A DNA stretch of 64,000 nucleotides from the human T2T-CHM13v2.0 reference genome, Homo sapiens: the NCBI RefSeq assembly GCF_009914755.1, contig NC_060935.1. One strand, 5' to 3'. The number at the start of each line of letters is the position of its first letter. Position 1 is the stretch's first letter. The translations under genes and the position numbers were made by a program. This document shows positions 26,084 through 28,082 of the stretch, piece after piece. Under the pieces are notes generated by a model. It saw only the letters and a program-made list of their open reading frames with translations. It had not been told where the DNA came from and searched no databases.

Positions 26084-28082
26084 CAGGCTGAGCATCCGTA
26101 ATATAAAAATCTGAAATCTGAAATGCTCCAAAATCCTAAACTTTTTGAGTGCTGACATTATGCCACAAATGGAAAATTTCATACCTGACCTTATGTGAGT
26201 TGCAGTCAAAACACAGGTGCACAACACCCAGTTCATGCAACATCCCCAATGGGAAAAAAGACCCCCCCAGCTCTCTTCTGCTGCAGTTTTTCTGCTCACA
26301 CCTGGATTTCCCCATGCATTCCCACAAAAAGTAATTAAATGGCATGCGTGCAGGCTGGACACGCCAACAACAGGTTTCCCACAATGCCCCACATGGGGCC
26401 AAGACCTGTGTGCATTACTCATTGCATTTTTTTGCTTATTCTCTGCTGTGTGGTATAAATATATTGTTGAAAATGTCAAAAAGACCTAAAGATACCCCTG
26501 TGAATATCAGTGATAAGAAAAAGAGGAAGCATTTATGTTTATCTATAGCACAGAAAGTCAAGTTGTTGGAGAAACTGGACAGTGGTGTAAGTGTGAAACA
26601 TCTTACAGAAGAGTATGGTGTTGGAATGACCACCATATATGACCTGAAGAAACAGAAGGATAAACTGTTGAAGTTTTATGCTGAAAGTGATGAGCAGATA
26701 TTAATGAAAAATAGAAAAACACTTCATAAAGCTAAAAATGAAGATCTTGATCGTGTATTGAAAGAGTGGATCCGTCAGCGTCGCAGTGAACACATGCCAC
26801 TTAATGGTATGCTGATCATGAAACAAGCAAAGATATATCACAATGAACTAAAAATTGAGGGGAACTGTGAATATTCAACAGGCTGGTTGCAGAAATTTAA
26901 GAAAAGACATGGCATTAAATTTTTAAAGACTTGTGGCAATAAAGCATCTGCTGGTCATGAAGCAACAGAGAAGTTTACTGGCAATTTCAGTAATGATGAT
27001 GAACAAGATGGTAACTTTGAAGGATTCAGTATGTCAAGTGAGAAAAAAATAATGTCTGACCTCCTTACATATACAAAAAATATACATCCAGAGACTGTCA
27101 GTAAGCTGGAAGAAGAGGATATCAAAGATGTTTTTAACAGTAATAATGAGGCTCCAGTTGTTCATTCATTGTCCAATGGTGAAGTAACAAAAATGGTTCT
27201 GAATCAAGATGATCATGATGATAATGATAATGAAGATGATGTTAACACTGCAGAAAAAGTGCCTATAGACGACATGGTAAAAATGTGTGATGGGCTTATT
27301 AAAGGACTAGAGCAGCATGCATTCATAACAGAGCAAGAAATCATGTCAGTTTATAAAATCAAAGAGAGACTTCTAAGACAAAAAGCATCATTAATGAGGC
27401 AGATGACTCTGAAAGAAACATTTAAAAAAGCCATCCAGAGGAATGCTTCTTCCTCTCTACAGGACCCACTTCTTGGTCCCTCAACTGCTTCTGATGCTTC
27501 TTCTCACCTAAAAATAAAATAAAATACAGTGTACAGTAACCTTTTAGTCAAAACAGCATCATACTTGGAAACTGAAAGCCTACTGTTATTTGTTATTGTT
27601 GCTTAACAGCTGATACAGGTATTCTGGTGACACTACTGTGCTGGCTTACTTAACCTGAATACACTATTTTTTTCGTTGTATTACTGGTATGTCATTTTTT
27701 TTACTGTTAAGTACTTATGTGTGAATAAGTGTAAAAAAATGATTGCTTATCGGTAACATATAAATTCAGAATCAGGAATGATGGTGATGCCAAACAATCA
27801 CAGATCGTCCACATGGGTGGCGGAGATGTTAACACCTTTGCTTTCTGATGGTTCAGTGTATCCACACTTTGTTTCATGCCAAAATTATTTAAAATATTGT
27901 ATGAAATTACCTTCAGGCTATGTGTATAAAGTATATATGAAACATAAATGAACTTTATGTTTAAACTGGGATCTTATCCTCAAGCTATCTCATTGTGTAT
28001 GTGTAAATATTTCAAACTAAAAAAAAAAAAAATCTGAAACACTTCTGGTCCCAAGCATTTCAGACAAGGGATATTCAACCTG
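26084..28082 (+). mobile_element. Tigger4 (Zombi) pogo-family DNA transposon, internally deleted, both TIRs present
   Basis: TA|CAGGCTGAGCATCCGTAAT...AAATCTGAAATGCTCCAAAATC on the left; ...GGTCCCAAGCATTTCAGACAAGGGATATTCAACCTG on the right (reverse complement CAGGTTGAATATCCCT); host L1 resumes after 28082. Confidence 0.88.
26473..27522 (+). CDS. Intact 349-aa Tigger4/Jerky-like transposase-derived DNA-binding protein lacking the DDE domain
   Basis: MSKRPK...KKKRKH (NLS); LSIAQKVKLLEKLDSGVSVKHLTEEYGVGMTTIYDLKK (CENP-B N/psq HTH); LDRVLKEWIRQRRS..PLNGMLIMKQAK..STGWLQKFKKRHGI (Tc5 HTH); A at -3; open upstream to ATG 26344 (392 aa). Confidence 0.75.
   Translation: MSKRPKDTPVNISDKKKRKHLCLSIAQKVKLLEKLDSGVSVKHLTEEYGVGMTTIYDLKKQKDKLLKFYAESDEQILMKNRKTLHKAKNEDLDRVLKEWIRQRRSEHMPLNGMLIMKQAKIYHNELKIEGNCEYSTGWLQKFKKRHGIKFLKTCGNKASAGHEATEKFTGNFSNDDEQDGNFEGFSMSSEKKIMSDLLTYTKNIHPETVSKLEEEDIKDVFNSNNEAPVVHSLSNGEVTKMVLNQDDHDDNDNEDDVNTAEKVPIDDMVKMCDGLIKGLEQHAFITEQEIMSVYKIKERLLRQKASLMRQMTLKETFKKAIQRNASSSLQDPLLGPSTASDASSHLKIK

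What the first reader, a model, noticed from the sequence alone, without database searches (positions are those of the whole stretch)
26960..27010. Clean in-frame excision of the DDE catalytic domain
Seen: after the second HTH (KFLKTCGNKASAGHEATEKFTGNF) the protein runs straight into the acidic tail (SNDDEQDGNFEGF). The pogo catalytic motifs (YNxDET, LLxDN, QPxD) are absent, and the element is ~2.0 kb, shorter than an autonomous Tigger. Inference: one frame-preserving deletion near 26988 left a bind-but-not-cut protein. It could have been a dominant-negative repressor of Tigger4 (compare P-element KP) or raw material for a transcription factor.
Basis: partly seen in the sequence, partly recalled or inferred. 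Interest (0 to 1): 0.75.

Follow-up and report, generated by a model that had tools for sequence, protein, structure and literature searches.

The report
Tigger-derived gene without its cutting domain
Exon 2 of the "non-coding" RNA LIPT2-AS1 is an old Tigger transposon that lost its DNA-cutting domain in one in-frame deletion, leaving a 349-residue DNA-binding protein that primates have kept intact; it has already been proposed in print as a coding gene.

Summary
Window 26084-28082 (+) is a 1999-bp Tigger-type element. Its 349-codon ORF (26473-27522) has both pogo-type HTH domains and no DDE_1 domain.

Compared with 29 other human copies and 13 DDE-bearing relatives, one gap of 708 bp (235-236 codons) is missing. 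It sits at 26985-26988, in frame, at a 2-3-nt microhomology, and removes the whole catalytic core. No other scored copy in T2T-CHM13 crosses this junction.

The ORF is not a chance survivor:
- Neutral copies carry about 14.6 disabling lesions per 1047 nt; this copy has none.
- The HTH region has N/S 1.5/7.5 against 535/223 in controls (p = 0.0015).
- Orangutan, marmoset, lemur and galago proteins share the junction.

Transcription starts at the LIPT2 bidirectional CpG-island promoter. The splice acceptor is the first CAG of the transposon's terminal repeat.

This is not new in outline. A 2024 preprint and 2025 paper already call LIPT2-AS1 a Tigger-derived, DDE-less, likely coding gene. New here are the anatomy of the deletion, selection resolved by domain, and DDE-less relatives in rodents and pika. 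Those relatives have a different junction and are linked to SMIM8.

A KP-like repressor origin is plausible but untested. "Tigger4" could not be checked.

The parts
22813..23406 (+). LIPT2-AS1 exon 1. It is non-coding for this ORF and lies head-to-head with, and overlaps, LIPT2 exon 1 in a CpG-rich promoter.
   Evidence: Annotation supplied with the finding. GC is 0.71 at 22500-22999 and 0.60 at 23000-23499. In-frame stops upstream of the ORF in exon 2 mean exon 1 cannot add coding sequence.
23407..26086 (+). Intron. The donor is GTAAGC at 23407. The acceptor AG is 26085-26086, bases 2-3 of the transposon's terminal CAG.
   Evidence: Sequence read at the annotated exon ends.
26082..26083 (.). 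TA next to the left end, the expected half of a TA target-site duplication. The right flank (28083-28084) reads CC, not TA.
   Evidence: Four other copies align from 26082, so they also carry TA before CAGG.
26084..28082 (+). Internally deleted Tigger-type (pogo superfamily) DNA transposon copy, 1999 bp.
   Evidence: Alignments to other human copies start at 26082 in 4 of the 9 that begin near the 5' end; 26077, 26081, 26099 and 26115 also occur. They end at 28073-28083 in 19 of the 20 that end near the 3' end, most often at 28082 (6 of 20); one ends at 28090. The right-end pattern ends at 28082. The first look found 4071 candidate relatives of the element in the genome, of which 40 were scored.
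26084..26099 (+). Left terminal inverted repeat (degenerate).
   Evidence: 12 of the first 16 bases pair with the reverse complement of the right end. The repeat finder missed it because it is imperfect.
28067..28082 (+). Right terminal inverted repeat.
   Evidence: The terminal 70 nt has 2006 first-look candidates genome-wide; 40 were scored, 39 of them other places, all at >=87% identity.
26344..26472 (+). In-frame upstream extension of 43 codons from an upstream ATG. Probably not the real start.
   Evidence: Relatives, including DDE-bearing ones, start at MSKR/MPKK, which is 26473 here. Marmoset P0004 is annotated with the extension.
26473..27522 (+). ORF of 349 codons plus TAA, about 40.0 kDa.
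26515..26529 (+). Basic stretch KKKRK (residues 15-19), NLS-like by inspection.
   Evidence: K17, R18 and K19 are nearly invariant in alignment A1. Its function is inferred.
26521..26676 (+). CENP-B_N helix-turn-helix (residues 17-68).
   Evidence: Pfam E 3.2e-7. An alignment profile matches CENP-B(1-129) 1HLV at E 1.5e-8. The AF2 model matches 1HLV_A by Foldseek at E 8.7e-6, TM 0.73.
26737..26925 (+). HTH_Tnp_Tc5 helix-turn-helix (residues 89-151).
   Evidence: Pfam E 1.1e-14. pLDDT is 66-92 over residues 21-150.
26985..26988 (+). Deletion junction, inside codon 172 (TTC). The TT at 26986-26987 is shared by both sides, and the consensus has GTT on both sides.
   Evidence: Other copies stop or start here.
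26986..27237 (+). Acidic, probably disordered region (residues 172-255), the transposase's own post-DDE segment.
   Evidence: 22 D+E against 6 K+R, pI 4.1. pLDDT is <50 for 153-187 and 223-261. It aligns in frame with the post-DDE part of DDE-bearing relatives. The amino-acid change rate equals that of neutral copies.
27265..27453 (+). Conserved C-terminal helical hairpin (helices 265-281 and 287-327).
   Evidence: pLDDT is 71-85. Residues 256-320 are 70-84% identical to human in lemur, galago and Glires. The region is conserved as far as a damselfly protein. No Pfam, PDB or Atlas family matches.
27400..27423 (+). QMTLKETF (residues 310-317), a degenerate PIP-box-like motif.
   Evidence: Q310 and L313 are nearly invariant, and F317 is present in 9 of 11 rows. 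The motif fits only part of Qxx[I/L/M]xxF[F/Y] as quoted in PMC5371812. This is a lead only.
27943..27948 (+). CATAAA, a possible weak poly(A) signal 23 nt before the annotated transcript end at 27971.
   Evidence: Read. That this hexamer works as a signal is recalled, not tested.

Best explanation
This is a domesticated Tigger (pogo-superfamily) transposase gene that lost its catalytic core.

Shown:
- A roughly 2.7-kb Tigger copy lies about 2.7 kb downstream of the LIPT2 CpG-island promoter, in the antisense direction to LIPT2.
- One 708-bp deletion between short microhomologies (GTT/TT) removed codons about 173-408 of the transposase. That segment holds all three catalytic motifs and the whole Pfam DDE_1 domain.
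- The deletion fused the bipartite CENP-B-type DNA-binding region in frame to the transposase's own acidic segment and C-terminal helical hairpin.
- The annotated transcript starts at the bidirectional promoter, splices from a GTAAG donor into the first CAG of the terminal repeat, and carries the complete ORF in exon 2.
- The DNA-binding region has been almost frozen since insertion, while the linker around the junction drifts freely.

Inferred: the 40-kDa protein enters the nucleus and binds sequences like its family's terminal repeats, which occur at thousands of places. It cannot cut them. It acts as a sequence-specific DNA-binding factor, such as a regulator or chromatin tether, and the C-terminal hairpin serves as a protein-contact or pairing module.

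Whether the deletion happened at this site or just before insertion is open.
For: Domains:
- Two HTH domains and no DDE_1.
- Profile match to CENP-B(1-129) 1HLV at E 1.5e-8.
- The AF2 model has pLDDT 66-92 over residues 21-150 and matches 1HLV_A at E 8.7e-6, TM 0.73.

Deletion:
- 709 consensus columns against 1 in this copy.
- A single frame runs through the flanks and the missing piece.
- The gap is 235-236 residues in 13 of 13 DDE-bearing relatives and encloses DDE_1.
- The Sciurus DDE+ protein aligns to residues 1-173 and 408-552 on adjoining DNA in one open frame.
- 29 of 29 other loci carry the DDE segment. The window has no such hit in the element; the best chance hit anywhere in the window has E 0.43.

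Uniqueness: only this locus spans the junction. In one search, 40 of 101 candidates were scored. In one search, 29 of 29 were scored.

Selection:
- 0 disabling lesions against 14.6 expected, P about 4e-7.
- With CpG-type changes excluded, the HTH region has N 1.5 / S 7.5 against 535/223 in controls, Fisher p 0.0015. Per-codon amino-acid change is 0.012 against 0.196.
- The HTH region is 93-99% identical to human in nine of the ten species compared (orangutan, marmoset, lemur, galago and five rodents) and 91% in the N-terminally incomplete pika protein.
- The same junction is present in Pongo, Callithrix (named LIPT2-AS1 by NCBI), Lemur and Otolemur proteins.

Expression anatomy: plus the supplied annotation.

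From print (passages read), PMC12679747 and PMC11601488 report:
- 3-5 discriminating peptides, some from frontal cortex.
- Ribosome-profiling support, cited to Van Heesch et al.
- Coding conservation across primates.

Precedent: 8 of 13 human Tigger-derived genes share a CpG-island bidirectional promoter, for example TIGD1-EIF4E2 (PMC2777200).
Against: - Over the whole ORF, N/S (35.5/18.5) does not differ from neutral copies (1551/561, p 0.28). Residues 152-255 change as fast as neutral copies (0.229 per codon in both). The C-terminal domain test is underpowered (3/3, p 0.17).
- The non-coding parts of this element are also less diverged than other copies (K 0.110 and 0.097 against 0.184 and 0.138). 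Part of the low divergence is therefore not protein-level selection. It could reflect a late insertion, a slow local rate, UTR constraint, or bias from anchoring alignments on this copy.
- The paper says most peptide matches come from cancer cell lines. [quoted passage not shown]
- RefSeq still files the gene as a lncRNA.
- The 5' leader is long, with upstream ATGs.
- No DNA from other species could be read here. Synteny of the primate proteins, and codon-level dN/dS between species, were not tested.
- DNA binding, nuclear location and any target are inferred only.
Confidence: 0.72

Rival explanations
1. KP-type repressor. The deleted element arose while the family was still jumping. It was kept because its protein blocked the family's transposase, either by occupying the terminal repeats or by poisoning transposase assemblies. 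This does not exclude a later host function.
For: - The architecture matches: an internal deletion removes catalysis and keeps DNA binding.
- The HTH region is nearly identical to the family consensus, so the original specificity is probably kept.
- This copy is the least diverged of those compared: 0 of 19 copies (5' part), 1 of 22 (3' part) and 0 of 29 (ORF) are as close to the consensus. That fits a late origin in the family's life.
- Small deleted P elements encode repressors such as the 207-aa KP protein. Reference titles say KP dimerises, binds P-element DNA and inhibits transposase in vitro (PMC7776569, passages and reference list read).
Against: - The family has been dead for tens of millions of years. 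Copies carry about 14 disabling lesions per 1047 nt, yet the frame stayed open in all five primates sampled. Repression alone cannot explain that.
- KP-type elements spread to many copies. This junction is single-copy in the human genome.
- No assay of any kind was run.
Confidence: 0.25
2. The deletion did not happen at this locus. A DDE-less, non-autonomous derivative was mobilised in trans and landed here. A sibling landed next to SMIM8 in the ancestor of rodents and lagomorphs.
For: - The element keeps both terminal repeats.
- DDE-less proteins of Sciurus, Urocitellus, Marmota, Callospermophilus, Octodon, Perognathus and Ochotona are 64-72% identical to the human protein and cover 80-99% of it. 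Their best human match is this locus: 89% and 72%, against <=77% with stops for the other copies.
- Five of them are named SMIM8 isoform X1. One transcript-like contig (P0033) fuses the HTH part in frame to SMIM8.
- Their left breakpoint lies only about 3 codons from the primate one.
Against: - Their junction differs on both sides (EKFI|EEVDI-type) and lacks about 43 further residues.
- No second copy with the primate junction exists among scored human matches.
- No remnant of this family lies within 60 kb upstream or 10 kb downstream of the start of human SMIM8 coding exon 1.
- The two amino-acid states shared by primates and Glires against the consensus (V10, K218) are polymorphic among decayed copies: 5 of 22 and 6 of 25.
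- The tree leaves primates and Glires unresolved.
- No Glires DNA could be read.
Confidence: 0.25
3. Neutral relic. The ORF is open by luck, the peptides reflect aberrant translation in tumour lines, and any function of LIPT2-AS1 lies in the RNA or in the act of antisense transcription.
For: - RefSeq calls it a lncRNA.
- Most peptide matches come from cancer lines.
- Whole-ORF N/S is not significantly below neutral, and the linker drifts.
- The non-coding parts are also little diverged.
Against: - P(0 lesions) is about 4e-7. Even with the 4071 first-look candidates, far fewer than one such copy is expected.
- The deficit of amino-acid changes is specific to codon position and domain.
- The frame is open with the same junction in five primates, and DDE-less relatives are open in seven Glires species.
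- The paper reports peptides from frontal cortex.
Confidence: 0.06

Closest known systems
LIPT2-AS1 / UniProt Q8TB74 as described in the PeptideAtlas audit (PMC12679747, 2025; preprint PMC11601488, 2024)
   Same: This is the same locus and the same ORF. The authors already state that it is Tigger-derived, lacks the DDE domain, is conserved across primates, has 3-5 peptides, and that the true start is 51 codons upstream of Q8TB74. That start is 26473 here.
   Different: The passages read do not describe any of the following:
- The missing domain as a single internal in-frame deletion, with the transposase's own C-terminus retained.
- The junction or its uniqueness.
- The retained terminal repeats, or the splice acceptor inside one of them.
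- Selection resolved by domain.

The authors list rabbit, mole-rat and beaver relatives as DDE-bearing. They do not mention the DDE-less, SMIM8-linked relatives in Glires. Their supplementary figures S10 and S11 were not seen.
KP repressor of the Drosophila P element
   Same: It is an internally deleted, non-autonomous transposon whose shortened protein keeps the DNA-binding end and lacks catalysis (PMC7776569).
   Different: - It belongs to a different superfamily (THAP domain rather than CENP-B/Tc5 HTH).
- KP is multi-copy and acts on a live family. This junction is single-copy, and the family is long dead.
- Repression was not tested here.
Pogo/Tigger-derived host genes (CENPB, CENPBD1, JRK, JRKL, TIGD1-7, POGK, POGZ)
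   Same: - The N-terminal CENP-B_N plus HTH_Tnp_Tc5 pair is the same.
- The mode of expression is the same as for TIGD1-EIF4E2 and 8 of 13 human Tigger-derived genes: a shared bidirectional CpG-island promoter (PMC2777200).
   Different: - Gao et al. [quoted passage not shown] This gene has none.
- Their screen discarded sequences flanked by terminal repeats and built its trees on the DDE domain, so it would have missed this gene.
- Both terminal repeats are still recognisable here.
CENP-B DNA-binding domain (PDB 1HLV)
   Same: The bipartite helix-turn-helix fold is the same: profile E 1.5e-8 over residues 19-146, and Foldseek E 8.7e-6, TM 0.73, rmsd 3.9 over 137 columns.
   Different: - Only 20% identity.
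- The Pfam CENP-B dimerisation domain is not detected (no hit at E <= 1).
- The target sequence is unknown.
DNA-binding-module domestications of Tc1/mariner transposases (Drosophila CG4570, cag, toy)
   Same: The host keeps the DNA-binding module and drops catalysis. This is one of two pathways proposed in PMC13548663 (abstract read).
   Different: - Those are insect genes from a different superfamily branch.
- Here the post-DDE C-terminal module is kept as well.
- The loss can be traced here to one deletion.

Membership tests
pogo/Tigger DNA transposon copy | [quoted passage not shown] | tested here: met
   Pfam E 3.2e-7 and 1.1e-14. Fold match to 1HLV.
pogo/Tigger DNA transposon copy | DDE_1 catalytic domain with the D,D,D/E triad | tested here: not met
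   No DDE_1 at E <= 1. The gap covers DDE_1 and the three motifs of relatives. The domain was lost by deletion rather than never present: 29 of 29 sister copies have it.
pogo/Tigger DNA transposon copy | Terminal inverted repeats and a TA target-site duplication | tested here: inconclusive
   The ends coincide with those of other copies, and 12 of 16 terminal bases are inverted repeats. TA is present on the left only; the right flank is CC.
pogo/Tigger DNA transposon copy | Many dispersed, decayed copies in the same genome | tested here: met
   4071 first-look candidates, 40 scored, at 68-89% identity (74-85% for the long matches). 2006 candidates for the terminal 70 nt.
   No Dfam, Repbase or RepeatMasker library was available. 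The papers read do not name the family.
Domesticated transposase gene | Open frame kept far beyond neutral expectation | tested here: met
   0 lesions against 14.6 expected, P about 4e-7.
Domesticated transposase gene | Purifying selection on the protein | tested here: met
   Met for the HTH region (p 0.0015). Not significant for the whole ORF (p 0.28) or the C-terminal domain (p 0.17). Between-species codon tests were not possible.
Domesticated transposase gene | Single-copy orthologues at the same locus in related species | tested here: inconclusive
   Proteins with the same junction occur in 4 other primates, one of them named LIPT2-AS1. Synteny could not be checked here. The paper reports conservation in a 470-mammal alignment across primates.
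Domesticated transposase gene | Transcribed and translated | not testable with these tools
   The annotated transcript, plus peptides and ribosome profiling, are reported in PMC12679747. None of this was re-examined here.
KP-type transposon-encoded repressor | Internal deletion that removes catalysis and keeps DNA binding | tested here: met
KP-type transposon-encoded repressor | Inhibits transposition of its own family | not testable with these tools
   No assay was run.
KP-type transposon-encoded repressor | Self-association of the shortened protein | not tested
The model shows a C-terminal helical hairpin at pLDDT 71-85, which does not show pairing.
Host-transposase fusion gene | Host-derived coding exon joined in frame to the transposase part | tested here: not met
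   In human, in-frame stops lie between the exon 2 start and the ORF. One Glires contig does show an in-frame fusion to SMIM8 (P0033).
PCNA-binding pogo transposases (PIP box) | C-terminal Qxx[I/L/M]xxF[F/Y] | tested here: inconclusive
   QMTLKETF at 310-317 has the Q, the L and the last F, but T where the first aromatic should be.

The most novel reading that the evidence does not exclude
Two lineages domesticated the same dying Tigger family independently, in the same way.

- Primates kept a copy beside LIPT2 that lost the DDE core by a 708-bp in-frame deletion.
- Rodents and pika kept another copy beside SMIM8 that lost it by a different, larger in-frame deletion of about 279 codons.
- Both retain the frozen DNA-binding region and the C-terminal hairpin.
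- Both coexisted with a conserved DDE-bearing relative, which is a frameshifted pseudogene in human (C10:90.58 Mb).

This would mean recurrent selection for a bind-but-not-cut Tigger protein. It may have begun as a KP-like brake and then been retained as a host factor that reads thousands of Tigger ends.
Probability: 0.35. Interest if true: 0.75.

Novelty: new member of a known kind. Interest (0 to 1): 0.5.

Why it matters
Catalogues of pogo-derived vertebrate genes list 12 members, and all of them retain the DDE domain (PMC7386202). This locus would be a further member and the first to drop the domain. The loss can be traced to one identifiable deletion, so it is a rare case in which the step from transposase to DNA-binding protein is visible in the sequence.

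The gene is still filed as a lncRNA in RefSeq. The evidence here adds independent evolutionary support to the proteomic case for calling it coding.

Because its DNA-binding region is nearly unchanged from the transposase, the family's thousands of terminal repeats are a ready-made set of candidate binding sites. That makes its function directly testable by ChIP or CUT&RUN.

If the rodent and pika genes prove to be an independent event, this would be a clear example of convergent domestication.

Tried and rejected
1. The repeat finder did not report the terminal repeats. They are too degenerate for ungapped seeds, so I aligned the ends directly.

2. My first element end (28083) was off by one. 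The pattern search fixed it at 28082.

3. C-terminal domain:
- No Pfam family, including the CENP-B dimerisation domain, at E <= 1.
- No PDB sequence match.
- The Atlas gave only unnamed arthropod clusters.
- Foldseek hits other than 1HLV have E >= 0.15.

4. Whole-ORF Nei-Gojobori omega (0.50) is close to that of decayed copies (mean 0.60), so it is uninformative. The signal only appears by domain and with CpG-type changes removed.

5. Search for amino-acid states shared by primates and Glires but not the consensus:
- Eight candidate positions were found.
- Six are consensus artefacts. Four of these are CpG decay (R to H at 94, 101, 103, 104). At all six the outgroup does not carry the consensus residue; it carries the derived one at five (38, 93, 94, 101, 104) and Q at position 103.
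- The other two are polymorphic among decayed copies.

6. The tree did not resolve primates against Glires.

7. Human SMIM8 neighbourhood (70 kb): no remnant of the family.

8. My MAFFT consensus changes frame inside the acidic low-complexity stretch (about residues 245-257). I take this as a consensus artefact, because the DDE-bearing proteins show the same break there.

9. A splicing origin for the gap is rejected. The gap is in genomic DNA, and the retained TTTCAG does not fit removal at the nearby AG.

10. Tools and files that were not available:
I therefore did not see whether the 13 Tigger-derived genes of PMC2777200 include this locus.

11. The family name could not be assigned.
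Full report
**What is there**

The + strand carries an ORF at 26344-27522. Its conserved start is the ATG at 26473, giving 349 residues.

Pfam finds CENP-B_N (residues 17-68, E 3.2e-7) and HTH_Tnp_Tc5 (89-151, E 1.1e-14). It finds no DDE_1 even at E <= 1.

The ORF sits in a repeat. Other human copies align from 26082/26084 to 28082, so the element is 26084-28082, or 1999 bp. TA lies on its left flank and CC on its right. Twelve of the first 16 bases are inverted at the other end. A whole-genome search with the element gave 4071 first-look candidates. 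Forty were scored, at 68-89% identity (74-85% for the long matches).

**The deletion**

- Every other copy stops matching at query position about 871-901 and resumes at about 897-908. That corresponds to window 26986/26987, with extra DNA in between.
- Nineteen copies hold both halves. Aligned with this one, they have 709 majority columns where this copy has one base, so the net loss is 708 bp, or 236 codons.
- In my own consensus the Sciurus DDE-bearing protein P0017 aligns as one frame from residue 1 to 479. The human protein aligns to the same frame on both sides of the gap.
- Thirteen DDE-bearing relatives have 235 residues (8 of them) or 236 (5 of them) inside the gap. In P0017 the gap is residues 174-408 and the Pfam DDE_1 match is 219-399. 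The YNADET, LFLDNCSAH and QPCDQG motifs lie in the gap.
- A tblastn search with that segment hits 29 of 29 other loci. It finds nothing in the element; the best chance hit anywhere in the window has E 0.43.
- The consensus reads ..AAG TT|T GCC.. on the left and ..ATG TT|C AGT.. on the right. This copy reads ..AAT TTC AGT... The join therefore lies in a GTT (now TT) microhomology inside codon 172.
- One event is the simplest reading. Nested successive deletions cannot be excluded.

**Is the junction shared?**

A 120-nt query centred on the junction matched end to end only at its own locus. The 39 other scored matches (40 of 101 candidates scored) begin at query 53-68, so they cover the right half only.

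A 90-nt left-weighted query matched end to end only at its own locus. The other 28 matches (29 of 29 candidates scored) end at query <=71, which is window 26987.

**Is the open frame chance?**

In the part homologous to the ORF, the 29 other copies carry 250 frameshifting indels and 94 stops in 24,612 aligned nt. That predicts 14.6 such lesions per 1047 nt. The best copy has 6.7, and this copy has none. Poisson P(0) is 4e-7.

Against the consensus, with CpG-type differences removed:

| Region | This copy N / S | Controls N / S | Fisher p | Amino-acid change per codon (this copy vs controls) |
|---|---|---|---|---|
| HTH, residues 17-151 | 1.5 / 7.5 | 535 / 223 | 0.0015 | 0.012 vs 0.196 |
| Residues 152-255 | 22 / 3 | 485 / 166 | 0.16 | 0.229 vs 0.229 |
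| C-terminal domain, 256-320 | 3 / 3 | 303 / 98 | 0.17 | 0.05 vs 0.20 |
| Whole ORF | 35.5 / 18.5 | 1551 / 561 | 0.28 | 0.109 vs 0.212 |

The constraint is therefore on the DNA-binding region and probably on the C-terminal domain. The segment around the junction is not constrained.

One caveat applies. The non-coding parts of this element are also closer to the consensus than other copies are (K 0.110 and 0.097 against means of 0.184 and 0.138). Zero of 19 and 1 of 22 copies are as close. This could reflect a late insertion, UTR constraint, a slow local rate, or bias from anchoring the alignment on this copy.

**Other species**

The protein search returned proteins with the same junction:

| Species | Identity to human | Length | Note |
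|---|---|---|---|
| Pongo | 97% | 349 aa | |
| Callithrix | 91% | 385 aa | named LIPT2-AS1 by NCBI |
| Lemur catta | 81% | 349 aa | |
| Otolemur | 77% | 335 aa | |

Their junctions are shown.

It also returned DDE-less proteins from Sciurus, Urocitellus, Marmota, Callospermophilus, Octodon, Perognathus and Ochotona. These are 64-72% identical to the human protein. Their junction differs (EKFI|EEVDI-type) and lacks about 43 more residues. Five carry the NCBI name 'small integral membrane protein 8 isoform X1'. One contig-derived protein (P0033) fuses the HTH part in frame to SMIM8.

The squirrel protein's best human match is this locus: 89% over residues 1-169 and 72% over 167-303, with no stops. 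Other copies reach <=77% and contain stops.

Human SMIM8 lies on another chromosome (C6:88545905-88549135). I found no remnant of the family in the 60 kb upstream or 10 kb downstream of the start of its first coding exon.

The HTH region is 93-96% identical between human and the six rodent and strepsirrhine species compared, and 91% in the incomplete pika protein. The C-terminal domain is 70-84% identical and the acidic part 32-76%.

Only two amino-acid states are shared by primates and Glires against the consensus, V10 and K218. Both are polymorphic among decayed human copies (5 of 22 and 6 of 25), so they are subfamily variants rather than shared history after insertion.

The tree puts the DDE-less proteins and the human-copy consensus in one clade (support 100/99). 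That clade is separate from the DDE-bearing gene clade (100/99). Primates and Glires are unresolved.

Whether the Glires gene is an independent event or a moved sibling cannot be settled without Glires DNA.

**Expression anatomy**

- Exon 1 (22813-23406, from the annotation) lies in a GC-rich block shared head-to-head with LIPT2 exon 1. GC is 0.71 and 0.60 in the two 500-nt windows.
- The donor is G|GTAAGC at 23406/23407.
- The acceptor AG is bases 2-3 of the transposon's terminal CAG, so exon 2 begins at 26087.
- In-frame stops between 26089 and 26343 mean exon 1 adds no coding sequence. In human this is not a fusion gene.
- The annotated end at 27971 lies inside the element, 23 nt after a CATAAA. 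The idea that this is a signal variant is recalled, not tested.

**The protein**

- The AF2 model was built from 49 aligned sequences. Mean pLDDT is 63 and pTM is 0.31.
- It is confident for residues 21-150 (pLDDT 66-92) and for two C-terminal helices, 265-281 and 287-327 (pLDDT 71-85).
- It is below 50 for 153-187 and 223-261.
- Foldseek's only significant PDB match is CENP-B(1-129) bound to DNA: 1HLV_A, E 8.7e-6, TM 0.73. This agrees with the profile search (E 1.5e-8).
- Residues 172-255 are acidic, with 22 D+E and pI 4.1.
- The C-terminal hairpin has no named family. It is nevertheless conserved as far as a damselfly protein.
- It ends in QMTLKETF. Q310 and L313 are nearly invariant. The motif resembles the PIP box only in part. 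A review says the PIP box of pogo transposase is conserved in Tigger (PMC5371812, passage read).
- The terminal 70 nt of the element has 2006 first-look candidates in the genome. Forty were scored, 39 of them other places, all at >=87% identity. Candidate binding sites are therefore abundant.

**What is known in print**

The PeptideAtlas audit covers this gene (PMC12679747, passages read; preprint PMC11601488, passages read). It already states that LIPT2-AS1 is Tigger-derived, lacks the DDE domain of JRK, is conserved across primates, has 3-5 discriminating peptides including some from frontal cortex, was reported in a ribosome-profiling study, and starts 51 codons upstream of Q8TB74.

Searches for 'LIPT2-AS1' (4 papers), 'Q8TB74' (1 paper) and 'SMIM8' with 'transposase' (0 papers) found nothing further.

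Gao et al. 2020 list 12 pogo-derived vertebrate genes and state that all retain the DDE domain. Their screen discarded sequences flanked by terminal repeats (PMC7386202, passages read).

Kalitsis and Saffery 2009 found 8 of 13 human Tigger-derived genes in bidirectional CpG-island pairs, with primate-specific TIGD1-EIF4E2 as the example (PMC2777200, passages read). Their gene list is in a supplement that I could not open.

KP is described as a 207-aa repressor encoded by small deleted P elements (PMC7776569, passages read).

A 2026 paper proposes separate DNA-binding-module and catalytic-module routes of Tc1/mariner domestication in Drosophila (PMC13548663, abstract read).

**Verdict**

The observation and the 'one in-frame deletion' inference hold. 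The object is a domesticated, DDE-less Tigger gene, expressed through the LIPT2 bidirectional promoter. Its existence and its lack of a DDE domain are already in print.

New here are the deletion anatomy, its uniqueness in the human genome, the domain-resolved selection, the splice acceptor in the terminal repeat, and the DDE-less, SMIM8-linked relatives in Glires.

The KP-like reading remains a plausible origin story without a test. The family name 'Tigger4' is unverified.

Noticed in passing
L038 = G000:C10:90575668-90579552 (match at C10:90576738-90578052, - strand): A full-length copy covering residues 1-552, broken across three frames. It is 58-92% identical to DDE-bearing 'jerky-like' proteins of Sciurus, Tupaia and Propithecus. 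Those proteins are 81-96% identical to each other across rodents, tree shrew and a lemur. The next-best human match to the squirrel protein reaches only 59%. This looks like a conserved DDE-bearing Tigger-derived gene of Euarchontoglires that is a unitary pseudogene in human.
   Followed up: partly
Proteins P0007, P0009, P0011, P0012, P0015, P0016, P0026, P0033 (no window coordinates): Rodent and pika proteins with the two HTH domains and the C-terminal domain but no DDE. Five are named SMIM8 isoform X1. P0033 is an in-frame fusion of the HTH part to full SMIM8, which makes it a candidate host-transposase fusion transcript in Glires.
   Followed up: partly
Proteins P0041 (Pristiophorus), P0037 (Trichuris suis), P0046 (Chiloscyllium): Further relatives lack most of the DDE core, each with a different breakpoint. 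Two of them still keep the first catalytic motif region. They may be deletion derivatives, alternative isoforms or gene-model artefacts.
   Followed up: no
window 26344-26472: An in-frame upstream ATG would add 43 residues. Marmoset P0004 is annotated with a homologous extension that differs by an in-frame indel.
   Followed up: no
window 27400-27423: QMTLKETF lies at the end of the long C-terminal helix. It is a degenerate PIP-box-like motif whose Q and L are nearly invariant from insects to mammals.
   Followed up: partly
window 26084-26472 and 27523-28082: The non-coding parts of the element are the least, or nearly the least, diverged from the family consensus among the copies compared. 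No explanation was established.
   Followed up: partly
preprint PMC11601488, Discussion: [quoted passage not shown] In my alignment the human, orangutan and lemur proteins are all 349 aa and end at the same place, so I could not tell what this refers to.
   Followed up: no
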